Shown: positions 36,228 through 64,000, numbered from the stretch's first letter. The stretch is DNA of 64,000 nt from Candidatus Poribacteria bacterium (GCA_965215015.1 OZ244042.1:1120001-1184000), one strand, 5' to 3'. The notes: generated by a model from the sequence alone, not told the origin. A program made the numbers and translations.

Positions 36228-36312
36228 AGAGCGCAAGCGGAGGGGAATGGGTTACCCCTAAAGGATTTTTGATAAAAACTGAGTTGCTACGATAAAAATT
36301 GAATTGTTATCC

Positions 36313-36341
36313 TTGAAAGTGCTCAGAACGAGAGATATACT
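36313..36341 (+). promoter_or_regulatory. Putative promoter of the cas10-csm operon
   Basis: TTGAAA-17 bp-TATACT about 35 bp upstream of the ATG at 36376. Confidence 0.55.
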
Positions 36342-36375
36342 TATGCCAAAATCTCAAATCTCAAGAGGTGACCGT

Positions 36376-38688: not shown

Positions 38689-38689
38689 G

Positions 38690-39100: not shown

Positions 39101-39111
39101 GGAGGAGCGAA

Positions 39112-39942: not shown

Positions 39943-39952
39943 GGAGGGGATC

Positions 39953-43181: not shown

Positions 43182-43943
43182 ATGCGAATCAAAATTACGT
43201 GCGACATCGGCGAAGGTATCCACCTGCCGATCAACTACAACTACTTTCTCACGGGCGTTATCTATCAATTTCTTAGAGAATCTGACCCTGAATACGGACA
43301 TTTCCTCCACCAAGAGGGCTATAAAGTTGAGAAGCGGCGTTTCAAACTGTTTACCTTCTCTCAACTGATGGCAAAACCGCGGGAGATTCGCGGCGACCAG
43401 ATCCACTTCCGTTCACCACTGACATGGTACATCTCCTCATCTCAGCAACCGTTTTTGGAAAACTTCGCCGCCGCGCTGATGGAGACGGGAATCCTACGGA
43501 TTGGAGGGCACAAGCTTCGGGTGCGGGATGTGGAGGTGTTGCGTCAACCCCGTTTTGGACCGCAGATGACCTTTCGGTGCCTCTCACCGATTACGATGTC
43601 TACTGTGCGCGAGCGGTACAGTACACCTTACTACTGTCTCCCCGGTGATCCTCAGTTCTCCGAGTTAGTTCGACAGAACCTGATTCGGAAGTACGAAGCG
43701 GTATACCAACAGCCGCCGCAAGAGAAATCGTTTGCGATGACCTTCGATCAGGCGTACATCGACAAACAGGAGGGACGTGTAACACGCTTAGTTGATTTCA
43801 AAGGGACCAAAATTCGCGGTGTTGTCGCTCCATTTCACGTCATCGGTACACCGGAGTTAATCCGCGTCGGCTATGAATGCGGCTTCGGGGATAAAAATAG
43901 CATAGGATTTGGGATGGTAGAGGTTGCAAGAAAGAATATATGA
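43182..43943 (+). CDS. cas6: CRISPR endoribonuclease Cas6
   Basis: LPINY, FKLFTFS, LSPI, G-rich loop GFGDKNSIGFG. Confidence 0.97.
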   Translation: MRIKITCDIGEGIHLPINYNYFLTGVIYQFLRESDPEYGHFLHQEGYKVEKRRFKLFTFSQLMAKPREIRGDQIHFRSPLTWYISSSQQPFLENFAAALMETGILRIGGHKLRVRDVEVLRQPRFGPQMTFRCLSPITMSTVRERYSTPYYCLPGDPQFSELVRQNLIRKYEAVYQQPPQEKSFAMTFDQAYIDKQEGRVTRLVDFKGTKIRGVVAPFHVIGTPELIRVGYECGFGDKNSIGFGMVEVARKNI

Positions 43944-44012: not shown

Positions 44013-45383
44013 ATGGTAATTTATGAAAAACTGATGGGCAATCCGTTTGTTGATGCAGGTGTGAGTGCGATCTGTGGGTGGCTGGGGCCAGGTACTCAGC
44101 CAGAGGAGATTACAACCGAAGATTTGCAAATAATGATAAATCAGTGGGCGCCGATTTATTGTACATCTGCGTGGAGTAAGAATCTCTATTCAATTTTTCC
44201 AAACAGTCCTGTGACCTATGCTGCACGTGAAAATAGGGATACCGTCGCGAAACTTGTATCTAAATGGTCGGACTGGCGTGAGAGAATCACGCCAATGAGT
44301 CAAGCGGGTGATTGCCTTGGCTGTGGACGTCGAGTGACAATGGAGAAATTACTTACAAAAACTGATGTACCCTTAACGGGTTCGGGCAGCCTGCGGAATT
44401 TCTTTCCGTTATTCAGCGATGGGCAAGGGTATTGTGCCGCTTGTGCCCTGGCGATTCAGTTTATCCCGCTTTCCTTGGTTTCCAGTGGCGGTAAATTCCT
44501 CATGTTGCACTCAAACGCTTGGCGGGTTCAAAGGAAGTGGACACAGATTTGTGTCTCCGATATCCAAAGCCGTTCCGCGCGGAATGAAGTCACTGGCTGT
44601 TTTAATCCGGGATACATTAACCCGCGTAATGGTCTATTCTACATGACGAGCCAGCTGATTGACTATGAGGAACGTCGCACAACCGAAGATATCACGATGC
44701 AAATCTTCTATTTCTCCAACTACAATCAAGGCCCAGAACTCGAAATCTTCCACCTGCCTGCACCGGTATTCCGTTTCCTACGCTACGCTTCTCAAGACCA
44801 ATTTCGGAGGGCATGGCAACGGATTGTCCGAAGTGGGTATCAGCGAGTCAAATGGGACGAAATTGAATCGGAAGATGATTACAAAAACTATTCCAATCGT
44901 GTCTACGAATTTCTGTTGCAAGGTCGATCCATCCTCCAATTTTTCATCAATAGACCCGCTCGGAAAACGCGTAGTAATTGGGTATTGCTTTACCTTTACC
45001 TAAAGGAGGTTAGGAATATGAAGGAATCGAGGCTTGACGCCATAAAACAGGTTGGCGACTTTATCGCCGAAAGCATTCGTAAATCTGAACGTGACCGACG
45101 GCTCCGACAACTTGAGGCCGCCGGAAGCTATAGCGAATGCCGAAACATTTTACGTTTTGTAATCCGAGACCGGATTCAACAAGGTGAAGAAGCACCGCTT
45201 TTTTCGCTAGATGATTACGTTACATGTCTATTTCCAGCATCACCGGATCAGACAACATTTTGGCGGGAAACCCGGGACCTACTCGTTTTTCGGATTTATG
45301 AAACTCTTCACGATTGGTTAGTTACAAGCGGTTTTGTTGATGATGCAGACGACGAAATCGATCAACTGACTGATCAACCATAG
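44013..45383 (+). CDS. cas8b1: Type I-B large subunit Cas8 (Cst1, CXXC-CXXC family)
   Basis: GNPFVDAG, FPNS, CLGC...PLTGS...NFF...CAAC. Confidence 0.88.
   Translation: MVIYEKLMGNPFVDAGVSAICGWLGPGTQPEEITTEDLQIMINQWAPIYCTSAWSKNLYSIFPNSPVTYAARENRDTVAKLVSKWSDWRERITPMSQAGDCLGCGRRVTMEKLLTKTDVPLTGSGSLRNFFPLFSDGQGYCAACALAIQFIPLSLVSSGGKFLMLHSNAWRVQRKWTQICVSDIQSRSARNEVTGCFNPGYINPRNGLFYMTSQLIDYEERRTTEDITMQIFYFSNYNQGPELEIFHLPAPVFRFLRYASQDQFRRAWQRIVRSGYQRVKWDEIESEDDYKNYSNRVYEFLLQGRSILQFFINRPARKTRSNWVLLYLYLKEVRNMKESRLDAIKQVGDFIAESIRKSERDRRLRQLEAAGSYSECRNILRFVIRDRIQQGEEAPLFSLDDYVTCLFPASPDQTTFWRETRDLLVFRIYETLHDWLVTSGFVDDADDEIDQLTDQP
45018..45383 (+). CDS. cas11: Internally translated small subunit Cas11 (121 aa) within cas8
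   Basis: AAAGGAGGT (45002..45010) 7 nt before an in-frame ATG at 45018 (MKESRLDAIKQ...); helical C-terminal domain. Confidence 0.75.
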   Translation: MKESRLDAIKQVGDFIAESIRKSERDRRLRQLEAAGSYSECRNILRFVIRDRIQQGEEAPLFSLDDYVTCLFPASPDQTTFWRETRDLLVFRIYETLHDWLVTSGFVDDADDEIDQLTDQP

Positions 45384-45396
45384 GGGAAATTTAATC

Positions 45397-46386
45397 ATGT
45401 CGAAACATGTTATAGGTTTGGTATTGATTGATGCACCGCACTCTGCACTCAATAATGCGGGGACTGAAGCATCGCAAGCAACAGAGAACATCGTCGTCGT
45501 TAAAACACTACGCAAAGGAAATCAGCCGTATCCGTATGTTTCAGGGCAAGCGTGGCGGAATTGGTGGCGAACGACGTTAGGTGAAGAGTCTAATTGGGAG
45601 CTTTCGCCAATCGAACGTGAGAAAAAAATTGCTTTCACCGCTGCTGATCCGGTCGTCTACGATGACGATGACGTTTTTGGCTACATGCGGGCAGTAAAGA
45701 AAGAAACGTTGACTCGACTCTCACCGTTGAAAACTTCACCGCTGATTTCGATTGAGCCGCAACGCCCCACGGACGACTTTGGTGTGATGGCACGACACGA
45801 AGGTGATCCAGTCCCCTACGAGCATCAGTTTTACTCATGCACCCTTAAGGGCATCTTTTCCCTCGACCTTGATGCTGTCGGTGCTTTCTGGAACGTCAAT
45901 AAAACCGGATACAAAAACATCACCGATACGCACATCCCAACCATTCAACTGGCTGGCGGAGAACAGGCAAACGAAAAATCGCCATGGGTCTTACCACCGG
46001 ACATCCGTCTGCGGCGTTGCCGCCAAACGCTTGAGGCACTCCCAATTCTCAGTGGTGGTGCGAAGTTGACCTCTCACTTGACTGACGTAACACCGAAGTT
46101 GATTATTCTATCTGTGCTCAACGGTGGCAATCATCCCTTCATGAACGTGATGGTTGAGCGAGACGGGCGAGGTGAATTGAGTATTGCGGCGCTGCGACAG
46201 GTTATTTTCGATTATGGGAGTCGTTTCCTTGATTCAATTTATATCGGTCGCCGTGAAGGGTTTATGGATGAATTAGACGAATCCTTGCGCCAATTGGCAG
46301 CAGACGGGTCGGTCATATACGATTCGCCCAACCAGGTCGTCGCCCAATTAGCGGGTGAACTCTCAAAACATTTCGGAGGAGAGTGA
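45397..46386 (+). CDS. cas7: Type I-B Cas7 (Cst2/DevR family)
   Basis: SALNN, YVSGQA.R...R, DDDVFGYM, R.SP, PYEHQF. Confidence 0.93.
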   Translation: MSKHVIGLVLIDAPHSALNNAGTEASQATENIVVVKTLRKGNQPYPYVSGQAWRNWWRTTLGEESNWELSPIEREKKIAFTAADPVVYDDDDVFGYMRAVKKETLTRLSPLKTSPLISIEPQRPTDDFGVMARHEGDPVPYEHQFYSCTLKGIFSLDLDAVGAFWNVNKTGYKNITDTHIPTIQLAGGEQANEKSPWVLPPDIRLRRCRQTLEALPILSGGAKLTSHLTDVTPKLIILSVLNGGNHPFMNVMVERDGRGELSIAALRQVIFDYGSRFLDSIYIGRREGFMDELDESLRQLAADGSVIYDSPNQVVAQLAGELSKHFGGE

Positions 46387-47018
46387 TGAAAGTTCTTCGT
46401 GTTCACATCAACGGTTGGGTGGCGTCGTTTCGGAACCCGTTATTCATCAGTGGATTCCAACCCACCCTTGCTGTGCCCCCGCTTTCAACCCTCTACGGCT
46501 TACTATCGGCTGCGCGAGGCGATTGGATAACACCTAACGATGCGGCGATTGGATTTATCTTCCAAAGCCAAGGTAAAGCCGTAGACTTGGAAACAGTGTA
46601 CGAGTTCGATCGGACACGGTTCCGAGCGAAACCGAATGTCTGCAAACGCGAATTCCTCGTTTCACCTGAGCTTTATCTCTACACGCCTGCGCTGTGGTTG
46701 AGACCCCATATCGAATCGCCTCATTATCCACTACTGTTGGGGCGTTCGACGGAATTAGCAACGGTTGTGTCAACCGCAGAGATTGAGTTGGAGGAGGTAT
46801 CCGAAACCATTTATCGCAATACACTCCTCCCATTTCCGAATGAGCGGATTTACGGGCAGATACAGGCGTTGCCAACCCATTTCACACCGGATCGCCCCCG
46901 CCGTCCGCAAGGCATCCGGCCGTTTTACATGCTAACGGAGCAAATTCCATATAGCGGTCCAGCGTTACAAGATACGGAGATGGGTTGGGGTGTGTATCTG
47001 CACGGAAATTCGAGATAA
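46383..47018 (+). CDS. cas5: Type I-B Cas5
   Basis: ASFRNP...QPT..VPPLSTLYGLLSAA, REFL, YPLLLGRS. Confidence 0.93.
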   Translation: MMKVLRVHINGWVASFRNPLFISGFQPTLAVPPLSTLYGLLSAARGDWITPNDAAIGFIFQSQGKAVDLETVYEFDRTRFRAKPNVCKREFLVSPELYLYTPALWLRPHIESPHYPLLLGRSTELATVVSTAEIELEEVSETIYRNTLLPFPNERIYGQIQALPTHFTPDRPRRPQGIRPFYMLTEQIPYSGPALQDTEMGWGVYLHGNSR

Positions 47019-47021
47019 ATT

Positions 47022-49259
47022 ATGACAGAACTACTTGCCAAAAGGGATCCCCCCGAGACACTGGCCGAACATACCGAAAACTGTCTTGCTGTCTATTTCA
47101 GTATGCAAAAAACTATGCCGTTTCTCGCGGAGATTTCTGGTGAACCGGATTTCTTTGACCATCTTTTCTACACGGTTGCTCTTCACGATTTCGGCAAGGC
47201 GGCAACCGGATTTCAGGCACAACTCCGATCGGCTGCCGAACGGTGGGGCTACCGTCACGAAATTTTATCAGCGGGATTTGTGGGTGGGCTAGATCTACCA
47301 CCCCACATCAAACAAGCTATCGGCTTGGCGATTCTAACCCATCACAAAGATATTCAGACACTGAGGGACCAATATCCTTGCTTTCCACCACAACAGCCGG
47401 GCTATGAAACATGGAAAGCGCGGAGAGCAGAATTAGTACCGAATTGGGATGCCTTGATGCGGATTCAAGAACAGGTTAGTCATTGGTATCCGAGCGAGGA
47501 TTGCCGTTTTGCCCCTCTACTTTCGCTGGATGGATTCATTAACGGAGATCAGGATTTTCTTGTGCCGTATCTTAACGATTTTGAGGATTGTGAATTGACG
47601 GTGTTGCATGGTCGTTACGGTATGTTGTTGCGCGGCTGTATGATTGCCTGCGACCATCTCGCATCGGCGGGAAAAATCAAGATTTACCGCGCTCTTGATG
47701 ATTTGGGGGGACATCTTCGCAACCAAATTGAGAAAAGAGGACGGGTGTTTCGAGGCTGGGATGAGTTTCAAGAGGCCTCCGCGAAAACGTCTGGACATCT
47801 AATGCTCTCTGCACCAACAGGTTCTGGGAAGACGGAAGCGGCTATACTCTGGTCAGATGCAAATGAGAGTGAATCCCTTGGACGGCGCGTGTTTTATGTT
47901 TTGCCTTACACCGCTAGCGTCAACGCGATGTACGACCGCCTGCTTAATATCGTCTCTGAAGACCGCATTGGGGTGTTGCACGGGAAAGCGAGTTATTTCC
48001 TCTATCAATCAATGGTAGATAAAGAATACACGCCTGACGAAGCGAAAAAAGCGGTTGCAAGAGCCCGGAAAAGCCAAAATCTGACGCGGAAAATTTATAG
48101 ACCCTACAAAATACTAACACCGTTTCAACTGCTCAAAGCCTTTTTCGGTATACGCGGTTTTGAGATGCAATTCGCAGAAATGGCGGGTGGCTTGTTCATC
48201 TTTGACGAAATCCACGCCTATGACCCGCATACAACCGCGCTAATCTTGATAATGGTTGAGAGACTCCGTCGAGATTACGGCTCGCAATTCTGCATTATGA
48301 CTGCGACGATGCCGAGATTCCTCAAAGAGATGTTTGTAAGTGCTATTGGCGAAATTGCTGAGGTTGAGATGTCTTCTGAGAAACGAGATCAATTCACTCG
48401 CCACCGCGTCAACCTGTTTGATGGCGGAATTCTTGATACAATTCCTGATATTGTCAAACGATTGGAAACCGGTCAACGAATATTGGTCGTCTGTAACACG
48501 ATTGGGCAGGCACAGACGGTTTTTGAGCAGTTATGCCCAAGTGCTACCAATCCGCAACTAGTCCATAGTCGTTTTATCCTCCGAGATCGAGAGCGAATCG
48601 AAAAAGAGTTGAAGGAGACTGACTTGCTTGTTGGAACACAAGCTGTCGAAGTTTCACTCGACATTGACTTTGATGTGTTATTTTCTGAACCTGCACCCAT
48701 TGATGCACTGATACAGCGATTCGGACGGGTAAACCGTACACGAAAGAAAGGTATCTGTGATGTATGTATCTGCCGCGAAGGGGGAGAAAACGACAAATAC
48801 GTCTATTCTACCGAGCGGGTGAACCGGACGCTTGATGCCTTTGCTGCCGTTGATATCTTGTACGAATCAAAGATTCAGCATCTCATTGATACAGTTTACG
48901 GCGACAGCTACGATACAAAGGAACAAGAGGTATTCGATAATGCCACAGCAATCTTCAGTCAATATTCACGAAATATCGTACCGTTCATCGAAGATGCCTC
49001 AAGACGCGAGGAGTTTACCGAACCCTTCAAGAGTGTTGAAGTTGTACCTTCGGATTATGAGGACGAATTTCTGGGACATATCAGGGCAAAGGAGTTTTAC
49101 GAGGCAATGGCTTACGTCACCTCAATTTCTGAGCAGCAATTCGCACGACTCTACAAGGAAGGGCAATTATACAAGCAGGAGGGACAGTGGTTCGTGCGGG
49201 TTGGCTACGATTCTGAACGTGGATTGGCACTCGATGAGTTAGCGGGGAATGTGTTGTGA
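47022..49259 (+). CDS. cas3: Cas3 HD nuclease-helicase
   Basis: TLAEH, LHDFGK, APTGSGKT, DEIH, MTAT, QRFGRVNR. Confidence 0.97.
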   Translation: MTELLAKRDPPETLAEHTENCLAVYFSMQKTMPFLAEISGEPDFFDHLFYTVALHDFGKAATGFQAQLRSAAERWGYRHEILSAGFVGGLDLPPHIKQAIGLAILTHHKDIQTLRDQYPCFPPQQPGYETWKARRAELVPNWDALMRIQEQVSHWYPSEDCRFAPLLSLDGFINGDQDFLVPYLNDFEDCELTVLHGRYGMLLRGCMIACDHLASAGKIKIYRALDDLGGHLRNQIEKRGRVFRGWDEFQEASAKTSGHLMLSAPTGSGKTEAAILWSDANESESLGRRVFYVLPYTASVNAMYDRLLNIVSEDRIGVLHGKASYFLYQSMVDKEYTPDEAKKAVARARKSQNLTRKIYRPYKILTPFQLLKAFFGIRGFEMQFAEMAGGLFIFDEIHAYDPHTTALILIMVERLRRDYGSQFCIMTATMPRFLKEMFVSAIGEIAEVEMSSEKRDQFTRHRVNLFDGGILDTIPDIVKRLETGQRILVVCNTIGQAQTVFEQLCPSATNPQLVHSRFILRDRERIEKELKETDLLVGTQAVEVSLDIDFDVLFSEPAPIDALIQRFGRVNRTRKKGICDVCICREGGENDKYVYSTERVNRTLDAFAAVDILYESKIQHLIDTVYGDSYDTKEQEVFDNATAIFSQYSRNIVPFIEDASRREEFTEPFKSVEVVPSDYEDEFLGHIRAKEFYEAMAYVTSISEQQFARLYKEGQLYKQEGQWFVRVGYDSERGLALDELAGNVL

Positions 49260-49340
49260 TTAGACGTGAGACCTCTCTAATCAAGCTACCATAAAATAAA
49301 TATAATACATTCAAGGCCAGCTGAGCGAAAGGACGTATTT

Positions 49341-51657: not shown

Positions 51658-54600
51658 CTTTTAATCGAACCAGTGTGGAATTGAAACATACTATGCTCGT
51701 CTACCTCGCCGAGGTAAGTCTCTCCTTTTAATCGAACCAGTGTGGAATTGAAACGCGCGTTTGGCAAGCAGATCGTCCATCGTTTCAATCTTTTAATCGA
51801 ACCAGTGTGGAATTGAAACGTTGGCAGGACGTTGAGTTTAACCACTTCACCTGCCGCTTTTAATCGAACCAGTGTGGAATTGAAACGAAGGAAGTTGCGA
51901 AGGAGGTGCAAGCATGATTGGCACTTTTAATCGAACCAGTGTGGAATTGAAACATAGTAAACATGCCAAGACGCCTTATAGACGCCTTTACTTTTAATCG
52001 AACCAGTGTGGAATTGAAACTCGCGACGGTCGTGATTCACCGACAGGGGCAACCCTTCTTTTAATCGAACCAGTGTGGAATTGAAACTTACGTCACCGGC
52101 TTGGCTTGGCTCCTGTTCTAAGCCTTTTAATCGAACCAGTGTGGAATTGAAACGTCCCCTCGCCGACGGTATAATCTTGACCGGGCCAGCTTTTAATCGA
52201 ACCAGTGTGGAATTGAAACATCTGAAAGCTATAGCTAAGCGGCTTGCTCAAGTTCGGCTTTTAATCGAACCAGTGTGGAATTGAAACACGGAAAAGGGTC
52301 GGTTCTCAGAAGCGTTTGCATATTCTTTTAATCGAACCAGTGTGGAATTGAAACTGGATTCAAAAACGACTAACGGACTCGAAATCTCAACTTTTAATCG
52401 AACCAGTGTGGAATTGAAACAAAACTAGAACTTCTTTTAAGCCTGCCTTAACCTTGCTTTTAATCGAACCAGTGTGGAATTGAAACATATCCAAGCCGTC
52501 AAGCTCCGCCAACGCCTGGGCACTTTTAATCGAACCAGTGTGGAATTGAAACCGCCGAACCGATTGGAGGAAGGGCAGGGGGGTCAACCTTTTAATCGAA
52601 CCAGTGTGGAATTGAAACAAGTTTAAAAGGGAGATTTACAATGCCTGTGCAAACCACTTTTAATCGAACCAGTGTGGAATTGAAACTCTTTCGGTTGACT
52701 CAACCGAAAATCATCAGTGCGAGCTTTTAATCGAACCAGTGTGGAATTGAAACAGATACCGTCGAACGAATCATGAAACGCCTCCTCACTCTTTTAATCG
52801 AACCAGTGTGGAATTGAAACCGCCTTCAAATGTCCAGTCTTGAACTACCCAGTCCTCCTTTTAATCGAACCAGTGTGGAATTGAAACATGCAACAGGGGT
52901 ATCGGGTGTATCTGGGGATGGCGCCTTTTAATCGAACCAGTGTGGAATTGAAACAAGCCGGTCATATCTTCATAAATCCGCATCGCGAGGCCTTTTAATC
53001 GAACCAGTGTGGAATTGAAACTTCCACCACGCGGCTGTATACGTAGTGCCGATCACCCTTTTAATCGAACCAGTGTGGAATTGAAACGCATTCGTCGAAT
53101 TGCAGATCAGTTGTCTTGAAGTAACTTTTAATCGAACCAGTGTGGAATTGAAACATCGCTGTATCATCAAAACTGCCCGCCGCATCCCCGCTTTTAATCG
53201 AACCAGTGTGGAATTGAAACATTTTCGCGATACGTCTCTTCCATCATACCGCGTCGCTTTTAATCGAACCAGTGTGGAATTGAAACAGGATCAGATACGC
53301 AGAATACGCACTCTGCGCCGCCTTTTAATCGAACCAGTGTGGAATTGAAACGTCCCCTTATGGACCCCGGAGTTAACGGTTGGGCCACTTTTAATCGAAC
53401 CAGTGTGGAATTGAAACGTGAGGTTCATCTCAGAGATGGTACGAATGTGTCCGACTTTTAATCGAACCAGTGTGGAATTGAAACCCATATTAAGGCCATG
53501 ATGCCTAGAATAGGAAGACACTTTTAATCGAACCAGTGTGGAATTGAAACGATTGCGACGCAAGAGATTGCAGCGGACACGCAGCCCTTTTAATCGAACC
53601 AGTGTGGAATTGAAACTTGCCCTCGCCGACGGTATAATCTTGACCGGGCCAGCTTTTAATCGAACCAGTGTGGAATTGAAACTTACCCGCCGTGCTTCCA
53701 ATTTCTTTTTCCAAGACACACTTTTAATCGAACCAGTGTGGAATTGAAACCTGTCCCCGACTTTTTGGCGATGAACTCGTTGCCCACTTTTAATCGAACC
53801 AGTGTGGAATTGAAACATGCAATCCAAAACCGCATCCTGAGGCCGCTTGTCGTCTTTTAATCGAACCAGTGTGGAATTGAAACACCCGCTACTCAAAAAC
53901 AATCGGGGCAGATCGATGACTTTTAATCGAACCAGTGTGGAATTGAAACACTGGAAATAGTTGTTGTTCGGATCGAGACTGGCCTTTTAATCGAACCAGT
54001 GTGGAATTGAAACTTAGGACTGGGTGTTGTCCCAGTCTTCTTGTTCCCTGCTCATTACGAAGCACTGGGCTTCGTAAAGGTCAACTTTTAATCGAACCAG
54101 TGTGGAATTGAAACTATGTTTGGCGGCTTCAAGCTTGCGGTCTTTTTCCTTCTTTTAATCGAACCAGTGTGGAATTGAAACTAAATCCGCATCGCGAGGC
54201 GTAACGGCACGCCGAGCGCTTTTAATCGAACCAGTGTGGAATTGAAACAAGATCGACTTTGACTCTACATCTTTGGTGTTTTCACTTTTAATCGAACCAG
54301 TGTGGAATTGAAACGTTCGCCTCGACTTCGGATTTGAGAGACTGAATCTCCTTTTAATCGAACCAGTGTGGAATTGAAACACAAACCCCCATGGGAACAA
54401 ATCCTGCGTTTCCATTCTTTTAATCGAACCAGTGTGGAATTGAAACGTTTTCTCCAGTACGCAGGGCTCGAAGAGTTCATGCGCCTTTTAATCGAACCAG
54501 TGTGGAATTGAAACAACTCATAACGGCTTAAAAAATCAGCTAACACCTCTCTTTTAATCGAACCAGTGTGGAATTGAAACTGGTCTTTTTTTGCCGCTTC

Positions 54601-57600
54601 CAGTTCGTTCTCAGCTTTTAATCGAACCAGTGTGGAATTGAAACCTGTCCGCTATCTTGAGCTTTCCAGCGCCGGCACCTTCTTTTAATCGAACCAGTGT
54701 GGAATTGAAACAAACCCTTCTCAAACGTGCGGAATATCGGATTCGCGCTTTTAATCGAACCAGTGTGGAATTGAAACACAGGTAGCCTGCCATGTCCGCG
54801 AGACGAAGTTTGGGCTTTTAATCGAACCAGTGTGGAATTGAAACAAATACTCGAACTCACAGGCGCTTACAGGAGAATTGCTTTTAATCGAACCAGTGTG
54901 GAATTGAAACTGCTCCTCACCCGAAAATGTCGTAATCGGGATGAACCTTTTAATCGAACCAGTGTGGAATTGAAACGGACTCAGCGGCGCCCACGTGCCG
55001 TTGCCCTGCGACTCACTTTTAATCGAACCAGTGTGGAATTGAAACTCATTCCCCGTCATTCGTACTTCCCACGGGGTTTCCTTTTAATCGAACCAGTGTG
55101 GAATTGAAACCGACGTAAATACGTATACTCTTGCCAATCCCAACCGCTTTTAATCGAACCAGTGTGGAATTGAAACAAGAGAAAGGATACCTATCACAAA
55201 CACCGAAAGCGCACTTTTAATCGAACCAGTGTGGAATTGAAACTGCGTCGCAATTCTCCTGTAAGCGCCTGTGAGTTCGCTTTTAATCGAACCAGTGTGG
55301 AATTGAAACTAGTCACTATGGTGTCCATAGTGATAGTGAGATAGCCTTTTAATCGAACCAGTGTGGAATTGAAACCACCCTTCGTGCATGATACTCACTT
55401 CTATGTTAATCACTTTTAATCGAACCAGTGTGGAATTGAAACCTTTACAGGTTAAAGACCTATTGAATGTTATCCATACTTTTAATCGAACCAGTGTGGA
55501 ATTGAAACCGAGCTGAATAAGCTAGGGATAAAGGAAAGCCTAGCCTTTTAATCGAACCAGTGTGGAATTGAAACAGACCAAAAGCACGATTTGCCAAGGT
55601 GTATAGTTTTTCTTTTAATCGAACCAGTGTGGAATTGAAACGCGAGTCTAGGAAAAAGAACTAGGGTTTTCAGCGATTCTTTTAATCGAACCAGTGTGGA
55701 ATTGAAACATCGCAGCGGGCCTTTTCAAACTGGACAGGATTACGCTTTTAATCGAACCAGTGTGGAATTGAAACACGAACGCAGATTTGACGGATGCCCA
55801 TATAGGCGGGCTTTTAATCGAACCAGTGTGGAATTGAAACATGCTAACAACATTGCTTTACACGCTAGAACGAGTGACTTTTAATCGAACCAGTGTGGAA
55901 TTGAAACTCCAGAGTCATGATTGGCGCTAAAACGTCTTTAAGACTTTTAATCGAACCAGTGTGGAATTGAAACATGGCCATGCGGGTTTGAAGCCGATCA
56001 CGCCAAAAAACTTTTAATCGAACCAGTGTGGAATTGAAACATAGGCATGCGGGTTTGAAGCCGATCACGCCAAAAACTTTTAATCGAACCAGTGTGGAAT
56101 TGAAACTTTCCCAGCTGCTTATACTGGCATTATACCTAACTTGCTTTTAATCGAACCAGTGTGGAATTGAAACGTGTCAGTCTTTGACGCTTCCGCTGGA
56201 TCGCCGTCGCTTTTAATCGAACCAGTGTGGAATTGAAACCGATGAGATTCGACTCCTTGCAGAGGAGTCCGTCGAACTTTTAATCGAACCAGTGTGGAAT
56301 TGAAACCTGTAAATGCGCCTGAGCTCAGACGCTATTGAGGTGCCTTTTAATCGAACCAGTGTGGAATTGAAACTGTTCTTGTGGATATACGCTTGAACGT
56401 AAAGCAATCCTTTTAATCGAACCAGTGTGGAATTGAAACAAACTCTTCCATGCTAAGGTTGCTTATGGTATCCGACTTTTAATCGAACCAGTGTGGAATT
56501 GAAACACAAAGGCAACCCTTTTTTGTAGCCATCCCGCATCTGACTTTTAATCGAACCAGTGTGGAATTGAAACTGACGCCATCTTCGAAGCGAGGCAAGA
56601 CTTCTGGCGTCTTTTAATCGAACCAGTGTGGAATTGAAACTAGGCAATCGGTAAACACGCAGTTCATTACTAACAACTTTTAATCGAACCAGTGTGGAAT
56701 TGAAACCTCTCACGCGTGCATGCGTAATAGCGTCATGCTTGCGCTTTTAATCGAACCAGTGTGGAATTGAAACGAATGAGAACGCGGGCAAAGGGCTGTT
56801 TGTGAAAACCTTTTAATCGAACCAGTGTGGAATTGAAACTCATAACGCAGCTGCAGCGTCGCACCGATCTTGGTAGCTTTTAATCGAACCAGTGTGGAAT
56901 TGAAACATAATCTTGCCATCGTCATCCGTCTCCTCGGCGATCCTTTTAATCGAACCAGTGTGGAATTGAAACTATGATAGAACACCATAACCGCGTGTTC
57001 AAACTTTGGCTTTTAATCGAACCAGTGTGGAATTGAAACCCGTTTTGATGGATGACGCCATCTTCAAACTCAATCTGCTTTTAATCGAACCAGTGTGGAA
57101 TTGAAACAAGTCACAACCTTCCGACCATGACGTTAGGCTTTTACTTTTAATCGAACCAGTGTGGAATTGAAACGTTAGCACGGGCAATCGTCGAGTTGTT
57201 AGAAAAGCTCTTTTAATCGAACCAGTGTGGAATTGAAACTTCCGTCAGACGTTGACCAAAGCGTTTGCCTCCATACTTTTAATCGAACCAGTGTGGAATT
57301 GAAACTCGGTCTTAAAATACAACTCAATACGCATTCTCTTACTTTTAATCGAACCAGTGTGGAATTGAAACCGGGTTTGAGTACAGCGGTGGGGTCGTAT
57401 GGTATGACTTTTAATCGAACCAGTGTGGAATTGAAACTCGTGATTCATAATCGGTTCTAAAACGTCTTTCAAAACTTTTAATCGAACCAGTGTGGAATTG
57501 AAACAGCGGCTCCGCTTCTTTGATCACGACAATCATCGTACTTTTAATCGAACCAGTGTGGAATTGAAACAACGGGTCTGCGTTGAGATTCAGTTTCGCG

Positions 57601-60600
57601 GTGGGGCTTTTAATCGAACCAGTGTGGAATTGAAACGTCTGTTCTGTCTGCGGCAATGACTGGCGCGACTACCTTTTAATCGAACCAGTGTGGAATTGAA
57701 ACGTGAGCTTGGCGTGGTGGGTTTTGACCCAAGGGTCGGACTTTTAATCGAACCAGTGTGGAATTGAAACTTATCTTCACTGTTGATGACCGTGATTTCG
57801 ACTTCATCTTTTAATCGAACCAGTGTGGAATTGAAACTTCCACCACGCGGCTGTATACGTAGTGCCGATCACCGCTTTTAATCGAACCAGTGTGGAATTG
57901 AAACTGGTTTCAACGACGCCCTCTCCCCCGGTGGGTATGCGCTTTTAATCGAACCAGTGTGGAATTGAAACTGGTTCTTACTTGTGTGCAGAATCTCTAC
58001 TAACATCTTTTAATCGAACCAGTGTGGAATTGAAACACTTCCGGGTTTCGTGCGTGTCCCACTGGTCGAATCCCTTTTAATCGAACCAGTGTGGAATTGA
58101 AACACCTTTGCGGCTTTCGCGAGCTCGTCGTGCAACCCTTCTTTTAATCGAACCAGTGTGGAATTGAAACACTAATGCCATCGTAATCTCCTCAGTTAAG
58201 TTGTTGCTTTTAATCGAACCAGTGTGGAATTGAAACTTGGTGCTACTGGTCTGGAACGAAAGTGTAAGCTTGCTTTTAATCGAACCAGTGTGGAATTGAA
58301 ACTTTTCAATCTCCTTTGTTGCGGTTGGTAGCTCTGCATCTTTTAATCGAACCAGTGTGGAATTGAAACCGACTAATGCCGCGCCGGCTGGCTTCTGCCT
58401 TGAGTATGCTTTTAATCGAACCAGTGTGGAATTGAAACATCTCATTACAATCTCCATGTTTACGAAAAATATAGCTTTTAATCGAACCAGTGTGGAATTG
58501 AAACCTGCATGCATACGCACGCATGACGCTAGGGCTCCTGCTTTTAATCGAACCAGTGTGGAATTGAAACGTGTTGGCACGCCCGGTAGTCGCGCCAGTC
58601 GTTGCCCTTTTAATCGAACCAGTGTGGAATTGAAACATTGATAAACTGCATATTCAAAAATCTCCTTTGATTGCTTTTAATCGAACCAGTGTGGAATTGA
58701 AACCGGTGTATGTCCCCGGCTGCCACTCAGGGACCCTTGCCTTTTAATCGAACCAGTGTGGAATTGAAACTACTCACTGCTGATTTTCGACCGACGGGGT
58801 TTCTTGCTTTTAATCGAACCAGTGTGGAATTGAAACCTTTGTTTCTGTCGTGTGCAGAATCTCTACCAACATCTTTTAATCGAACCAGTGTGGAATTGAA
58901 ACACTGCCGTGAGATACCTTGAGATCAGGCAAGTCCTTCTTTTAATCGAACCAGTGTGGAATTGAAACTGTTCCCCGTTGTTTTGCAACGCGTCCAGTTC
59001 ACTGCTTTTAATCGAACCAGTGTGGAATTGAAACTGGCCACTCGGTTCTAAGACGAGGTTGTTAGCCTCGCTTTTAATCGAACCAGTGTGGAATTGAAAC
59101 CTGAAACTGGGGTATTCACCGGCCGTGTAACCACCGACTTTTAATCGAACCAGTGTGGAATTGAAACTCGTGCAACCCTTTGATCTCCGCTTGCTTCTGC
59201 TGGCTTTTAATCGAACCAGTGTGGAATTGAAACGCGGGATGCAGCTGGTCAGCATCTTCTTTGTAGTTCTCTTTTAATCGAACCAGTGTGGAATTGAAAC
59301 TCAGCTTGACACAAGACCGATGCAACACGCATCGTACTTTTAATCGAACCAGTGTGGAATTGAAACAAATCTCCTTTTAGTTAAAACCTAAATTATTGAA
59401 CCCTTTTAATCGAACCAGTGTGGAATTGAAACGAGTCTGCCTTGTCGCTCTTGTTCGTGCTGTATGTACTTTTAATCGAACCAGTGTGGAATTGAAACAG
59501 AGCCCAGAGACATGGTCTTGTTATTTTTCGGATACTTTTAATCGAACCAGTGTGGAATTGAAACATCGGCTTGATCTCCCAACACGTCTTCAAAGCCGTC
59601 CTTTTAATCGAACCAGTGTGGAATTGAAACTTGCACCGTCGCAGTCATCGTACTCTTAACCATGTCTCTTTTAATCGAACCAGTGTGGAATTGAAACCGT
59701 TGTTAATCGCTAATAACGACTGCACCAGGGGTTGCTTTTAATCGAACCAGTGTGGAATTGAAACGCATAGACAAGTTAGAACATGTATCTGACATCATAT
59801 CTTTTAATCGAACCAGTGTGGAATTGAAACAAACGCACATGCGTCGTAATAGCGTCTATAATCGGTCTTTTAATCGAACCAGTGTGGAATTGAAACGAGT
59901 TTGCCCCTGTCGTCCCACGCGTACTGTTGGAGCTTTTAATCGAACCAGTGTGGAATTGAAACACGTTTGACCAATCCCCAGCCCGTCGCGACGGTCGTGC
60001 TTTTAATCGAACCAGTGTGGAATTGAAACTATGTTTGGCGGCTTCAAGCTTGCGGTCTTTCTCCTCTTTTAATCGAACCAGTGTGGAATTGAAACTCGCT
60101 CGAGTATGCAGAAACCGAAACATTTTTAACACTTTTAATCGAACCAGTGTGGAATTGAAACTGGTTCATTCATAACGGTTTCTTCGATTTCTCGCACCTT
60201 TTAATCGAACCAGTGTGGAATTGAAACTCTTTTGGTTCGGGTATGTTACAACCTAAGCAACAGACTTTTAATCGAACCAGTGTGGAATTGAAACAGCACA
60301 GCCTCACTACGTTTTGCCTGACTGATTTGACTTTTAATCGAACCAGTGTGGAATTGAAACATCGCATCAACGCGAAAGAACGGAAACGCGAGGCGGCTTT
60401 TAATCGAACCAGTGTGGAATTGAAACTAGACGCGTCATCGTGATCGCCAATGTCAATACCTGCTTTTAATCGAACCAGTGTGGAATTGAAACAATATCTC
60501 CGCCTCGCGTTTCCGTTCTTTCGCGTTGACTTTTAATCGAACCAGTGTGGAATTGAAACTCTTTCGGTTGACTCAACCGAAAATCATCGGCACGCCTTTT

Positions 60601-63600
60601 AATCGAACCAGTGTGGAATTGAAACAAACCCGCAAGTGGTTAGGATGCTTTACCCGATAAACCTTTTAATCGAACCAGTGTGGAATTGAAACTGATTTAG
60701 GTAAATCCCGGTAACGTGGTGGAAATGGCTTTTAATCGAACCAGTGTGGAATTGAAACGATAAACTCAACGGTCATTTGCTGGTTCTCAACAGTCTTTTA
60801 ATCGAACCAGTGTGGAATTGAAACCAACTTCCTTAAGAAGGGCAAGCACATCTAATCTGCCTTTTAATCGAACCAGTGTGGAATTGAAACGTGTCAGGTA
60901 CTGAAATCCAGATGCCTCTGCGGATGGCTTTTAATCGAACCAGTGTGGAATTGAAACCCGGCCGGCTTGCTTTACCCGATAAAGGTAAAGCCGTCTTTTA
61001 ATCGAACCAGTGTGGAATTGAAACATGTCCAGGACTTCCCAACATTGGTCAACTTCATTCCACTTTTAATCGAACCAGTGTGGAATTGAAACGTATAATG
61101 CCCACCAGAGATCGACAAGGGATGCCGGCTTTTAATCGAACCAGTGTGGAATTGAAACATGAAGTTACTGACGGCGTCTAACACAACCCAGTTACTTTTA
61201 ATCGAACCAGTGTGGAATTGAAACCCGGCCGGCTTGCTTTACCCGATAAAGGTAAAGCCGTCTTTTAATCGAACCAGTGTGGAATTGAAACATTCACTGG
61301 CGTTCATGCTGGTTCTCCTTAAGTTGTGCTTTTAATCGAACCAGTGTGGAATTGAAACATATGAGTCCCAGTTACTTTATACTCACCCATTGCCTTTTAA
61401 TCGAACCAGTGTGGAATTGAAACTTTACCAGCGAGGGTCGATCGCTGATATGCCTAGTACCCTTCTAATCGAACCAGTGTGGAATTGAAACTGGATTCAG
61501 GCGTGTGATTAGACGTCGGCGTGCATCGCTTCTAATCGAACCAGTGTGGAATTGAAACAAGGGATGATCGGGCGTGGCGTCAACACCCGCTTGGCCTTCT
61601 AATCGAACCAGTGTGGAATTGAAACTTAACATCAGGTCAGATAGGTTATTGCCACCACACTCTTCTAATCGAACCAGTGTGGAATTGAAACACAGCCCTG
61701 ATCCATCATTGTTGCCATAATGTCCTCCTTCTAATCGAACCAGTGTGGAATTGAAACACGGACGGAACGCCGCAGCAGTACCCACCTGCCCTACTTCTAA
61801 TCGAACCAGTGTGGAATTGAAACGGAGGCCTGGTTGATGACCTCCCGCACCGTTGACGGCTTCTAATCGAACCAGTGTGGAATTGAAACTAGGGTCCTTC
61901 TGTCCATTTTGCTTTGGCAATATACACTTCTAATCGAACCAGTGTGGAATTGAAACAAGCATAGGATATTCCTATCTTCATTAATTTTTATTACTTCTAA
62001 TCGAACCAGTGTGGAATTGAAACCTGGGATATGCCTCTGCTAAGGTTACTTTTGTTCCTTCTTCTAATCGAACCAGTGTGGAATTGAAACTGGGTTGAAA
62101 TTCTCTGCTACGATGTTGTATATGGTCTTCTAATCGAACCAGTGTGGAATTGAAACCTGTCCCCATCATATACAAGATTGATAAGTATAATCGCTTCTAA
62201 TCGAACCAGTGTGGAATTGAAACGTGGTTAGAATGACCTATTGTGTAAATCATTAGTGCCTCTTCTAATCGAACCAGTGTGGAATTGAAACCCGGGCGTC
62301 CCGATTTCAGATAACACCGGCCGCTCGTACTTCTAATCGAACCAGTGTGGAATTGAAACGCGTTCAAGACGTCCTGAGTCACTTTGAGAATCTTGCTTCT
62401 AATCGAACCAGTGTGGAATTGAAACGTTGAATCAAAACCCGCATTGTGCAACGCGCGGCCGACTTCTAATCGAACCAGTGTGGAATTGAAACACAGGATT
62501 AGGATTGCCCAGTTTAGTACTCTTAACACTTCTAATCGAACCAGTGTGGAATTGAAACCCCTCAAACTTGAGGGTTTCATTTCGGTTGTCGCTCACTTCT
62601 AATCGAACCAGTGTGGAATTGAAACGAGAGTTTCAGTTGAGTGATTCATCTTGATACCTTTCTTCTAATCGAACCAGTGTGGAATTGAAACGAAACTGCG
62701 AAGCCCCTCCGCATATTCCTCATCAGTCTTCTAATCGAACCAGTGTGGAATTGAAACTGATAATTCTCCTTGCCTTAGTAGGCATTGTGTAGGCCTTCTA
62801 ATCGAACCAGTGTGGAATTGAAACTTGAAGTTACGATAAACCCTATAAAGGACCTTCTGACTTCTAATCGAACCAGTGTGGAATTGAAACCCAACCGTGC
62901 CGTCTGCTCCGATGGGGGCGCATGCTTCTAATCGAACCAGTGTGGAATTGAAACACGGTATCAATGAGCGTCGGTTCATGAACCTGACTGCTTCTAATCG
63001 AACCAGTGTGGAATTGAAACATTGGAACATTTTTCTTTTCTAACGTTCTCATTACACCTTCTAATCGAACCAGTGTGGAATTGAAACAGATTTCAAAGTA
63101 GTACCGTACCGACGCTTCGAGACTTCTAATCGAACCAGTGTGGAATTGAAACTGAATTAAGCTATCCTGGCCCTGTGACGGTGCTTTGCTTCTAATCGAA
63201 CCAGTGTGGAATTGAAACGTATCATCTTGGGAAACTAAAAACGGGTGAGTCACAGCTTCTAATCGAACCAGTGTGGAATTGAAACAAGGGGGGGCATTCC
63301 TTATAGTCGGAATCCAATCGACTTCTAATCGAACCAGTGTGGAATTGAAACGGAGCCTAACGACATGGTCTTATTGTTCTTAGGATACTTCTAATCGAAC
63401 CAGTGTGGAATTGAAACGATGAGTAGACTCAACCAAGACCTCAAAGACATAACCCTTCTAATCGAACCAGTGTGGAATTGAAACGAGTCCAACGATCGTG
63501 CTTTCCGTTTCAGTCGAGTCACTTCTAATCGAACCAGTGTGGAATTGAAACTAGCAATAGAGGAAATATAAATCAAGGTCGTAAAGGACTTCTAATCGAA

Positions 63601-64000
63601 CCAGTGTGGAATTGAAACCCGGTAGTGCCCGTGAAAGTAAACTTGAGATTCCCACTTCTAATCGAACCAGTGTGGAATTGAAACAAGACCAAACGACCTT
63701 TTTCGGACAACCCGGCCGTGCTTCTAATCGAACCAGTGTGGAATTGAAACCGGCACCACCAACAGTGATAGGCCACGATCCAACGGCTTCTAATCGAACC
63801 AGTGTGGAATTGAAACTGGTATATTCTGATACAATCCTTTTTCCTACATCTCCTTCTAATCGAACCAGTGTGGAATTGAAACATTGATAAGAAACTGACG
63901 AGCGGAAGGGAAGCCCCCTTCTAATCGAACCAGTGTGGAATTGAAACAGATTGGTGGGGAGCTCATCAAAGTCCATACTTCAACTTCTAATCGAACCAGT
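51658..64000 (+). CRISPR. CRISPR array, 30-bp repeat CTT(T/C)TAATCGAACCAGTGTGGAATTGAAAC, continues beyond the window
   Basis: Hand count of 147 CTTTT-type repeats (51658..61423) then 39 CTTCT-type (61462 to end, last truncated). Spacers are mostly 34-39 nt. The ATTGAAAC 3' end and leader position give + orientation. Confidence 0.99.

What the first reader, a model, noticed from the sequence alone, without database searches (positions are those of the whole stretch)
54845..60529. Mutually complementary spacer pairs that always spare the crRNA 5' end
Seen: 54845..54880 and 55244..55279 are reverse complements over 29 nt (7-nt unpaired 5' ends). 60361..60396 and 60493..60529 pair over 30 nt (6- and 7-nt unpaired 5' ends). 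57637..57672 and 58571..58606 pair over 21 nt with one mismatch. All three overlaps are 3'-to-3', so the array encodes guides able to bind its own transcript. Established: type III complexes target RNA, and in Thermus Cmr the binding seed is 3' while the tag-proximal ~7 nt control Cas10 activation. Inference: in an array shared by I-B and III-A, opposite-strand acquisitions may survive only if this activating region stays unpaired (an autoimmunity filter), and such crRNAs could act as decoys or cut the pre-crRNA. Three pairs is a small sample.
Basis: partly seen in the sequence, partly recalled or inferred. Interest (0 to 1): 0.72.

Follow-up and report, generated by a model that had tools for sequence, protein, structure and literature searches.

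The report
Backwards-inserted CRISPR spacers pairing tail-to-tail
Three pairs of mutually complementary spacers in a very long CRISPR array are real, but each looks like an older normal spacer plus a newer neighbour inserted backwards, so their tail-to-tail pairing follows from how they were acquired and does not by itself show an anti-autoimmunity filter.

Summary
All three pairs sit exactly where stated and overlap 3'-to-3'. Shuffles give no dovetail of 14 nt or more, against 4 observed. The array has 236 repeats and follows one csm6-cas10-csm2-5 / cas6 / I-B cas8b-cas7-cas5-cas3-cas4-cas1-cas2 block.

In 64 related genomes (5,764 spacers), opposite-strand overlaps of 21 nt or more are 9 tail-to-tail, 2 exact flips and 0 head-to-head. 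Chance cross-genome pairs are symmetric, 46 against 50.

The inferred PAM is 5'-YCN (24 of 39 flanks). In tail-to-tail pairs one member, usually the newer, is followed directly by NGR, the PAM complement: 12 of 24 members, against 3 of 29 and 13 of 92 in controls. In this array those members are 60361-60396, 54845-54880 and 57637-57672. The unpaired 7, 7 and 15 nt end at a PAM inside the older spacer.

"Always" fails. The same array has short 5'-to-5' overlaps, and two III-A genomes hold full-length flips. A type III filter still fits the missing long head-to-head class. It could not be tested: genomes without cas10 gave one long pair.

The parts
34929..36068 (+). csm6 (CARF-type ring nuclease family)
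   Evidence: NCBIfam TIGR02584, E 4.6e-54
36304..38688 (+). cas10/csm1. HD motif at residue 39 and GGDD at residue 607 of the ORF as listed; the true start may lie further in.
   Evidence: TIGR02578, E 1.1e-168; motifs found
38579..40933 (+). csm2 (38579-39100), csm3 (39112-39942), csm4 (39953-40933)
   Evidence: TIGR01870, TIGR02582, TIGR01903
41832..42980 (+). csm5
   Evidence: TIGR01899, E 7.4e-42
43182..43943 (+). cas6, the only one in the block
   Evidence: TIGR01877, E 7.2e-44
44013..49259 (+). type I-B effector genes: cas8b1/cst1 (44013-45383), cas7/cst2 (45397-46386), cas5 (46383-47018), cas3 with HD (47022-49259)
   Evidence: TIGR01908, TIGR02585, TIGR01895, TIGR01587 and TIGR01596
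49341..51405 (+). adaptation genes: cas4 (49341-49856), cas1b (49996-50991), cas2 (51094-51405)
   Evidence: TIGR00372, TIGR03641 (E 1.5e-137), TIGR01573
51406..51657 (+). leader (AT-rich, between cas2 and the first repeat)
   Evidence: sequence printed; role inferred from position
51658..64000 (+). CRISPR array, 30-nt repeat CTTTTAATCGAACCAGTGTGGAATTGAAAC. 185 repeats lie in the window; the whole array has 236 repeats and ends at window-equivalent 67329.
54845..54880 (+). spacer 48, the newer member of pair 1. Its 3' flank, read from the partner, is CGA (= NGR, the PAM complement), so it is read as a backwards insertion.
55244..55279 (+). spacer 54, the older member of pair 1, normal orientation. 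Its 5' flank TCT (= YCN) is visible through spacer 29. An internal TCG at its positions 5-7 precedes the overlap.
53551..53586 (+). spacer 29. It overlaps spacer 54 5'-to-5' over 12 nt (1 mismatch), from the same invader segment.
60361..60396 (+). spacer 131, the newer member of pair 2. Its 3' flank is AGA (= NGR), so it is read as a backwards insertion.
60493..60529 (+). spacer 133, the older member of pair 2. An internal TCT at its positions 5-7 precedes the overlap.
57637..57672 (+). spacer 90, the newer member of pair 3. Its 3' flank is CGG (= NGR), so it is read as a backwards insertion.
58571..58606 (+). spacer 104, the older member of pair 3. An internal CCG at its positions 13-15 precedes the overlap.
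56440..56475 (+). spacer 72. It overlaps 5'-to-5' over 16 nt (1 mismatch) with spacer 207, which lies beyond the window at window-equivalent 65407-65442.

Best explanation
Each pair is an older, normally oriented I-B spacer plus a newer spacer inserted backwards ('flipped'). The newer spacer comes from a PAM-flanked protospacer on the same invader strand that starts 7, 7 or 15 nt further downstream and overlaps the older one. The two members were taken up in the same bouts of adaptation to one invader; they lie 6, 2 and 14 spacers apart among 235.

Flipping the downstream member of two overlapping same-strand protospacers gives 3'-to-3' complementarity by geometry alone. The unpaired 5' end of the older spacer is the stretch up to and including the internal PAM (YCN) that licensed the second protospacer. 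The partner's unpaired end has the same length, within a nucleotide, because the spacers are 36 or 37 nt long. The ability of the two crRNAs to pair is therefore a by-product of acquisition.

Shown: the overlaps, their geometry, the closeness in the array, the 5'-YCN motif, and the NGR at the 3' flank of one member.
Inferred: the flipping itself, and uptake during primed or interference-driven adaptation.
Open: why the mirror product (upstream member flipped, which gives 5'-to-5' pairing) is missing at long overlaps in 64 genomes. It may never be made, or it may be purged by self-targeting.
For: - Overlaps and geometry. Above chance.
- PAM: 24 of 39 5' flanks readable from overlapping partners are YCN, against about 11.5% background. 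CCN and TCN are listed I-B PAMs in Vink 2021, Table 1 (PMC8482600, passages seen).
- NGR directly after the 3' end in tail-to-tail pairs of 18 nt or more: 12 of 24 members, or 11 of 22 in the stricter set.
- Controls for NGR: 3 of 29 flanks derived from same-strand pairs (Fisher p = 0.003) and 13 of 92 in chance cross-genome pairs.
- Exactly one member carries NGR in 8 of 12 pairs. Of the 12 NGR-bearing members, 9 are the newer spacer.
- In this array it is the newer member in 3 of 3 pairs. The overlap starts right after a YCN inside the older spacer: TCT 5-7, TCG 5-7, CCG 13-15.
- The normal 5' PAM of spacer 54 (TCT) is seen through spacer 29.
- Tail-to-tail partners lie close in their arrays. 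Distances are 24, 1, 2, 10, 6, 51, 64, 5, 14, 11, 4, 144, 1; combined p = 1e-4 against random placement.
- Flipped spacers are documented: Shmakov 2014 (PMC4027179, passages) and Li 2017 for I-B (PMC5416893, section 15 passages).
- Many same-strand duplicates and overlaps in this array show repeated sampling of the same invader segments.
Against: - No protospacer was found, so the 5' flanks of spacers 131, 48 and 90 are unseen. They could also carry a PAM, which would make them dual-PAM sites rather than flips.
- Flips are rare where they were measured: 30 of 37,957 in Haloarcula hispanica (Li 2017). Here tail-to-tail pairs are nearly as common as PAM-bearing same-strand pairs, so either flipping is frequent in this setting or selection enriches it.
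- Two of 12 tail-to-tail pairs have NGR on both members and 2 on neither.
- The bias towards the newer member is not significant: 9 of 12, p = 0.15; 7 of 8 among pairs with exactly one, p = 0.07.
- Flipping alone predicts equal numbers of tail-to-tail and head-to-head pairs. The 9 to 0 asymmetry at 21 nt or more is not explained by it.
- The I-B sliding model places PAM-bearing protospacers of the priming strand upstream of the priming site, not downstream (Li 2017), so these do not fit it neatly.
Confidence: 0.55

Rival explanations
1. Complementary spacers arise in all geometries. Cells in which a crRNA pairs through its tag-proximal +1..+7 and about 23 nt or more with another spacer's RNA activate Cas10 and Csm6 on their own pre-crRNA and are lost. 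Only tail-to-tail pairs (5' region unpaired), short head-to-head pairs and exact flips remain.
For: - 0 head-to-head against 9 tail-to-tail overlaps of 21 nt or more in 64 genomes (binomial p = 0.004).
- At 12-20 nt, head-to-head pairs do occur: 6 against 11. About 2.8 chance pairs are expected in all.
- Availability of opposite-strand PAMs is flat along spacers, so PAM placement does not explain the deficit.
- 12 PAM-bearing same-strand pairs of 21-30 nt carry the same PAM-plus-seed self-match in array DNA and are tolerated. A DNA-level filter therefore does not explain the gap at 21-28 nt.
- The longest head-to-head overlap (20 nt) lies under the +1..+23/26 requirement. The +1..+7 Cas10-activating region is reported for III-A (Nasef 2022, PMC9704408, section 9). 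The abstract of Steens 2021 was seen in the listing.
- Every observed pair in a III-A+ genome is predicted not to activate. Exact flips place the repeat's 5' CTTTT opposite tag positions -4..-2, like the anti-tag RNA that silences Cas10 (Wang 2018, bioRxiv 10.1101/369744, passages).
Against: - The length dependence is not significant (Fisher p = 0.063).
- Two full-length flips and a 20-nt head-to-head pair exist in III-A+ genomes.
- Genomes with no cas10 hit gave 1 long pair, which is tail-to-tail with free ends 1/1 (G068). There is no contrast to compare.
- YCN sites at positions 3-4 of the older spacer went unused in 5 pairs, but that is not beyond chance (about 0.11, my arithmetic).
- No RNA data are available, and Csm use of this array is inferred from gene order only.
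Confidence: 0.27
2. Ordinary two-strand primed acquisition (the I-B 'sliding' model) without flipping. The older spacer primes uptake. PAM-distal DNA yields protospacers on the target strand, which lie tail-to-tail with the priming protospacer. Head-to-head neighbours are simply not made.
For: - In H. hispanica I-B the vast majority of protospacers upstream of the priming site are on the non-target strand and those downstream on the target strand (Li 2017, PMC5416893, section 15).
- P. furiosus I-B shows a PAM-side non-target peak and a PAM-distal target-strand peak (Garrett 2020, PMC7293040, passages).
- Tail-to-tail partners lie close in their arrays.
- The ranking same-strand > tail-to-tail > head-to-head holds in both length classes: 20/9/0 and 18/11/6.
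Against: - It predicts a random 3' flank for the newer spacer, but NGR is found in 12 of 24 members against about 12-14% in controls.
- Same-strand pairs show no order bias: 10 with the newer member upstream, 10 downstream.
- Real short head-to-head pairs exist, one of them between adjacent spacers (G131 48/49, 14 nt, both with YCN).
Confidence: 0.12
3. Type I-B DNA self-targeting filter. Any arrangement that puts one spacer's PAM, seed and a long match inside another spacer's DNA in the array is cut by Cascade-Cas3 and lost. Flipping the downstream member removes that self-target.
For: - Same-strand pairs offset by 3-7 nt (overlap of 28 nt or more): 0 of 5 have YCN for the downstream member. 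At offsets of 8 or more, 15 of 17 have it.
- Tail-to-tail pairs with free ends of 4-9 nt number 5, while PAM-bearing same-strand and head-to-head pairs with such small offsets number 0.
Against: - PAM plus 19-30 nt self-matches are tolerated in 15 same-strand pairs, so this filter cannot explain the absence of head-to-head overlaps at 21-28 nt.
- The counts are small.
- I-B interference activity in these strains is unknown.
Confidence: 0.2

Closest known systems
Oppositely oriented ('flipped') spacers in type I adaptation (E. coli I-E, Shmakov 2014, PMC4027179; Haloarcula hispanica I-B, Li 2017, PMC5416893)
   Same: A spacer enters the array as the reverse complement of a PAM-flanked protospacer, so the PAM complement lies at its 3' side. 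Complementary spacer pairs have also been noted in natural arrays (Shmakov 2014 discussion).
   Different: The classical case is the same protospacer in both orientations, fully complementary. Here the flipped spacer comes from a neighbouring protospacer offset by 7-15 nt. It pairs with an older spacer of the same array, is usually the newer of the two, and only the tail-to-tail product is seen at long overlap.
Primed adaptation by type I-B, 3'-5' sliding model (Li 2017; Garrett 2020, PMC7293040)
   Same: Several spacers are drawn from one short invader segment and lie close together in the array. As the spacers read in the array, the opposite-strand member lies on the PAM-distal side of the older one.
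   Different: The PAM visible for the newer member is on the older spacer's strand, not on its own. Same-strand pairs show no bias for the newer member to lie upstream.
Type III self/non-self control: crRNA tag against anti-tag, and the Cas10-activating region at +1..+7 (Wang 2018, bioRxiv 10.1101/369744; Nasef 2022, PMC9704408; Steens 2021, PMC8376896)
   Same: The pairing classes that are observed and those that are missing match what these rules would tolerate and forbid.
   Different: Those rules were established for invader or antisense-array transcripts. Their action on sense pre-crRNA that carries complementary spacers is untested.
Arrays shared by co-occurring I-B and III systems (Vink 2021, PMC8482600; P. 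furiosus, Garrett 2020)
   Same: One adaptation module and one repeat type lie next to both a DNA-targeting and an RNA-targeting effector. Vink 2021 counts 71 such I-B/III genomes (passage).
   Different: Nothing differs in architecture. The array is unusually long, with 236 repeats.

Membership tests
Type I-B CRISPR-Cas (Cas8b1/Cst1 branch) | cas8b1, cas7, cas5, cas3 (HD plus helicase), cas4, cas1b and cas2 together | tested here: met
   All match their NCBIfam models above the cut-off.
Type I-B CRISPR-Cas (Cas8b1/Cst1 branch) | A 5' PAM on the protospacer strand | tested here: met
   YCN in 24 of 39 5' flanks read from overlapping spacers. The flanks are indirect, because no invader sequence was found.
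Type I-B CRISPR-Cas (Cas8b1/Cst1 branch) | Cas6 processing that leaves an 8-nt 5' tag | not testable with these tools
   cas6 is present and the repeat ends in ATTGAAAC. No RNA run is listed. That ATTGAAAC is the usual tag is recalled, not tested.
Type III-A (Csm) | cas10/csm1 with HD and GGDD motifs, csm2-5, and an ancillary csm6 | tested here: met
Type III-A (Csm) | Csm loads crRNAs from this array | not testable with these tools
   Inferred only from adjacency and the single cas6. The genome also has two other arrays and a Cmr2 gene elsewhere.
Flipped spacers | PAM complement directly 3' of the spacer | tested here: met
   Spacers 131 (AGA), 48 (CGA) and 90 (CGG). Across the family, 12 of 24 members, against 3 of 29 and 13 of 92 in controls.
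Flipped spacers | No PAM at the spacer's own 5' side | not testable with these tools
   The 5' flanks lie outside both partners, and no protospacer was found.
Flipped spacers | The partner is the same protospacer in the other orientation (classical flip) | tested here: not met
   Offsets are 7, 7 and 15 nt in this array. Classical full-length flips occur in G087 and G102.
Products of primed I-B adaptation | Spacers from one invader segment clustered in the array | tested here: met
   Distances of 2, 6 and 14 here. Family-wide combined p = 1e-4.
Products of primed I-B adaptation | The new spacer carries the PAM on its own strand, as in the sliding model | tested here: inconclusive
   The only PAM visible is on the partner's strand. 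The spacer's own 5' flank is unseen.
   0 head-to-head overlaps of 21 nt or more, against 9 tail-to-tail. But 2 full-length flips and one 20-nt head-to-head pair lie in III-A+ genomes. Length dependence: p = 0.063.
   17 arrays (1,003 spacers) in genomes with no Csm1 or Cmr2 hit gave one long pair: G068, tail-to-tail, free ends 1/1.

The most novel reading that the evidence does not exclude
In arrays shared by I-B and III-A, the spacer content is shaped by type III self-tolerance. Backwards insertions are common next to an existing spacer. Those that would pair crRNA positions +1..+7 plus about 23 nt or more with another spacer's RNA are purged, because Csm would read its own pre-crRNA as a non-self target. 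Tail-to-tail pairs survive because the activating region stays unpaired. Exact flips survive because the repeat's 5' CTTTT imitates an anti-tag.

A mechanistic variant is also open. The flipped, overlapping spacer may be cut from the DNA end that Cas3 leaves at the R-loop of the older spacer. That would yield only the tail-to-tail product.
Probability: 0.27. Interest if true: 0.7.

Novelty: new variant of a known kind. Interest (0 to 1): 0.45.

Why it matters
If the reading holds, complementary spacer pairs in natural arrays record backwards insertions rather than two-strand sampling. The position of an internal PAM then predicts their geometry.

A backwards spacer has no PAM for I-B, but it gives a PAM-independent type III complex a guide against the opposite-sense transcript. 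Shared I-B/III-A arrays could therefore profit from such 'errors'.

Long head-to-head pairs are absent in 64 genomes. This gives a simple, countable signature for testing whether self-targeting, on pre-crRNA by type III or on array DNA by type I, limits what an array may contain. At present it is a lead from 28 pairs, not a demonstrated rule.

Tried and rejected
**Invader search (nothing usable).**
- Spacers against the organism's own genome gave only 17-18-nt hits.
- 7,993 bases of the array against the phage collection gave no match.
- IMG/VR scans with pieces of pairs 2, 1 and 3: only one search hit, at L031 and L032. These match 20 nt with unrelated flanks and were rejected.
- Two metagenome scans: one purine-rich 22-nt chance hit, L095, onto which 0 of 5,764 spacers map with 6 or fewer mismatches.
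- A genome-contig scan found nothing.
- Spacer 54 with up to 3 mismatches in 159 genomes of the order matched only itself.
- The array as a DNA query against the order returned only array-to-array alignments. That was useful solely for locating more arrays.

**RNA.** No RNA holder is listed.

**Ideas rejected.**
- Chance.
- A PAM-position bias along the spacer as the cause of the head-to-head deficit: YCN and NGR frequencies are flat.
- A 'first internal PAM is used' rule: it was the first in only 3 of 12 cases.
- A symmetric dual-PAM capture complex: the PAM-to-PAM spans are 43-55 nt, not the spacer length.
- Complementarity between this array and the genome's two other arrays: only one 13-nt match with 2 mismatches.

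**Rows dropped.**
- 'Spacers' outside 30-45 nt, for example the 71-nt one at 54014-54084 and 14 of 67 in G001.
- Three fetched loci with fewer than 3 repeats (G052, G078, G117).
- Locus L085, a duplicate of 15 G005 spacers.
- Genomes whose cas1 lies at a contig edge, and G094, were not fetched.
- Arrays away from cas1 were added only where one search revealed them.

**Method limits.** Overlap detection needs a shared 9-mer and at most 12% mismatches. Genomes were classed as type III-free from two family searches only. Five genomes with sub-threshold or borderline Cmr2-like hits were set aside as ambiguous.

**Closed or unseen.** Supplementary files were not opened. Li 2017 Table S5 and the Vink 2021 additional files, which give a PAM per repeat cluster, could bear on the PAM and on the flip rate.

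**Novelty searches.** searched the held library and listed no paper describing a tail-to-tail rule for overlapping spacers. That library is partial.

Full report
**What is there.**
The window is G000:C1:1120001-1184000. From 34929 to 51405 one co-oriented block encodes:
- csm6, cas10/csm1, csm2, csm3, csm4 and csm5 (type III-A);
- a single cas6;
- cas8b1, cas7, cas5, cas3, cas4, cas1b and cas2 (type I-B).
Cas10 keeps its HD and GGDD motifs.

A 252-nt leader follows, then an array that starts at 51658. The array has 185 repeats in the window and 236 in all. It ends at genome position 1187329 with a degenerate repeat, a hairpin and a T-run. The repeat is 30 nt and ends in ATTGAAAC. The genome holds two further arrays with other repeats, a second cas1 and a Cmr2 gene elsewhere.

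**The observation.**
All six coordinates are true spacer boundaries. The three overlaps are as described: 29 nt, 30 nt, and 21 nt with 1 mismatch, all 3'-to-3'.

In 30 shuffles of the 234 spacers, dovetails of 14 nt or more never occurred, against 4 observed. Dovetails of 10 nt or more averaged 2.1, against 11 observed.

The fourth long dovetail is 5'-to-5': 56440-56475 with a spacer beyond the window, 16 nt with 1 mismatch. A 12-nt 5'-to-5' overlap joins 53551-53586 to 55244-55279. 'Always' is therefore too strong even in this array.

The array also holds at least a dozen same-strand duplicates and offset overlaps. The same invader segments were sampled repeatedly.

**Widening the sample.**
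- The repeat family occurs in 33 of 61 relatives searched.
- A close Cas1b is found in 67 of 159 genomes of the order.
- I fetched the DNA beside cas1, plus further arrays that one search revealed.
- The arrays were parsed.
- All spacers of 30-45 nt were then compared on both strands. Detection needed a shared 9-mer, a dovetail of 12 nt or more, and at most 12% mismatches.
- The final set is 5,764 spacers from 64 genomes.

Opposite-strand dovetails:

| Comparison | Tail-to-tail | Exact flip | Head-to-head |
|---|---|---|---|
| Within genome, 21 nt or more | 9 | 2 | 0 |
| Within genome, 12-20 nt | 11 | 0 | 6 |
| Cross-genome (16.1 million comparisons) | 46 | 0 | 50 |

- Cross-genome pairs cannot reflect events inside one cell. 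They are symmetric, and in the 4,912-spacer set none exceeded 19 nt. They predict about 2.8 chance pairs among the 470,808 within-genome comparisons.
- Same-strand offset pairs number 20 at 21 nt or more and 18 at 12-20 nt.
- The 9 to 0 split gives a binomial p of 0.004.
- The test of whether the head-to-head share depends on overlap length gives p = 0.063.
- Tail-to-tail partners of 18 nt or more lie close together in their arrays: distances 24, 1, 2, 10, 6, 51, 64, 5, 14, 11, 4, 144, 1; combined p = 1e-4.

**PAM and orientation.**
Where two spacers overlap, one supplies the other's flank.
- 5' flanks are YCN in 24 of 39 cases, against a background of about 11.5%.
- This fits the CCN and TCN motifs listed for I-B by Vink 2021. 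It also confirms the array orientation used here.

The 3' flanks of tail-to-tail members gave the unexpected result.
- NGR, the PAM complement, follows the spacer directly in 12 of 24 members, or 11 of 22 in a stricter set (p = 1e-5).
- The controls are 3 of 29 for flanks read from same-strand pairs and 13 of 92 for chance cross-genome pairs.
- Exactly one member carries NGR in 8 of 12 pairs. 9 of the 12 NGR-bearing members are the newer, leader-proximal spacer.
- In this array it is the newer member in all three pairs: spacers 131, 48 and 90.
- The overlap begins right after a YCN inside the older spacer: TCT at 5-7 of spacer 133, TCG at 5-7 of spacer 54, CCG at 13-15 of spacer 104.
- Spacer 54 shows a normal 5' TCT through its overlap with spacer 29.

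The simplest reading is that the newer spacer is the reverse complement of a PAM-flanked protospacer on the same strand as the older one, 7-15 nt further downstream. That is a backwards insertion, of the kind described by Shmakov 2014 and, for I-B, by Li 2017. Flipping the downstream one of two overlapping same-strand protospacers gives tail-to-tail pairing. The unpaired 5' length is then set by the place of the internal PAM.

**What this leaves open.**
Flipping the upstream protospacer would give head-to-head pairs, and at long overlap these are missing. Three causes were considered.

(a) *Mechanism.* The I-B sliding model puts opposite-strand spacers on the PAM-distal side of the priming site (Li 2017, section 15; Garrett 2020).
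- In its plain form it does not predict the 3' NGR.
- Same-strand pairs show no order bias, 10 against 10.
- Real short head-to-head pairs exist. One joins adjacent spacers and has YCN on both members.

(b) *A type I DNA filter.*
- Same-strand pairs offset by 3-7 nt never show a PAM for the downstream member (0 of 5). Those offset by 8 nt or more do (15 of 17).
- This suggests that a PAM plus about 29 nt or more of self-match in the array is not tolerated.
- Fifteen pairs with a PAM plus 19-30 nt are tolerated, so this cannot clear head-to-head pairs of 21-28 nt.

- Tail-to-tail pairs leave +1..+7 largely unpaired.
- Head-to-head pairs stop at 20 nt, below +1..+23/26 (Nasef 2022, section 9).
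- Exact or near-exact flips place the repeat's 5' CTTTT opposite tag positions -4..-2. This resembles the anti-tag RNA that silences Cas10 (Wang 2018).

Against (c):
- The evidence is thin. About 3 to 9 head-to-head pairs would be expected, and 0 are seen.
- The needed contrast is missing. The 17 arrays from genomes with no Csm1 or Cmr2 hit (1,003 spacers) gave one long pair, G068, tail-to-tail with free ends 1/1.

**Verdict.**
The three pairs are best read as an older spacer plus a newer, backwards-inserted overlapping neighbour. Their geometry and the 7/7/15-nt free ends then follow from acquisition.

The autoimmunity filter is not needed for these pairs. It remains a live explanation, at about one chance in four, for the absence of long head-to-head pairs. 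The survey and the engineered-array test listed under next steps would decide it.

I could not find the invader, so the flipping rests on flanks read from partner spacers. No RNA data were available.

Noticed in passing
window 40980-41453: A 209-bp unit repeated 2.3 times (93% matches) fills most of the 899-bp gap between csm4 and csm5, inside the III-A operon.
   Followed up: no
window 51658-64000 and on to window-equivalent 67329: The repeat variants come in blocks: 147 CTTTT..., then 48 CTTCT... (from 61462), 38 CTTTT..., 2 CTTCT..., 1 CTTTT.... This looks like array recombination or fusion.
   Followed up: partly
window 54014-54084: A 71-nt 'spacer' with two internal hairpins and no recognisable repeat inside. 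It is either a double-length insert or two spacers that lost their repeat.
   Followed up: partly
spacers of 64 related arrays (loci L011-L094) and window 51688 onwards: G is depleted at spacer position 6: 12% against 22.6% overall, in 3,923 unique spacers of 35-38 nt. The last spacer base is A in 37%.
   Followed up: no
tail-to-tail pairs in G000, G059, G064, G082, G087, G131, G135, G146: The spans covered by tail-to-tail pairs cluster at 41-45 and 51-55 nt. None falls at 46-50, whereas same-strand offsets fill the matching 9-14-nt range. The sample is small and the gap was noticed after the fact.
   Followed up: partly
window 60958-60994 = 61225-61261; 53022-53057 and 57838-57874; 54115-54151 and 60030-60065; 55974-56010 and 56041-56076: The same protospacer occurs two or more times in one array, some copies differing by 1-4 bases. 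This indicates repeated uptake from variant invaders.
   Followed up: partly
same-strand pairs in G087, G064, G059, G062, G146: Same-strand spacer pairs offset by only 3-7 nt have no YCN in front of the downstream member (0 of 5), unlike those with larger offsets (15 of 17). Either these are large 'slips', or PAM-bearing versions have been purged.
   Followed up: partly
genome 1347516-1351003 (minus strand) and 3452631-3455195; cas1-like frame 1351657-1352649; Cmr2 5083621-5085054: There are two further CRISPR arrays with 37-nt repeats, one of which also ends in ATTGAAAC. A second cas1 sits in a 555-aa open frame, and a III-B cas10 lies far from any of the three arrays.
   Followed up: no
window 4182-4210 and 5831-5871: Short tandem runs of TGTGGATAACC flank the 450-aa ORF at 4452-5804. 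From memory, TGTGGATAA is the complement of the DnaA-box consensus, so this may be dnaA/oriC. This was not tested.
   Followed up: no
loci L031 2401-2420 and L032 5002-5021: Two unrelated viral contigs share exactly 20 nt with the pair-3 segment and nothing beyond it. This may be a conserved short coding motif.
   Followed up: no
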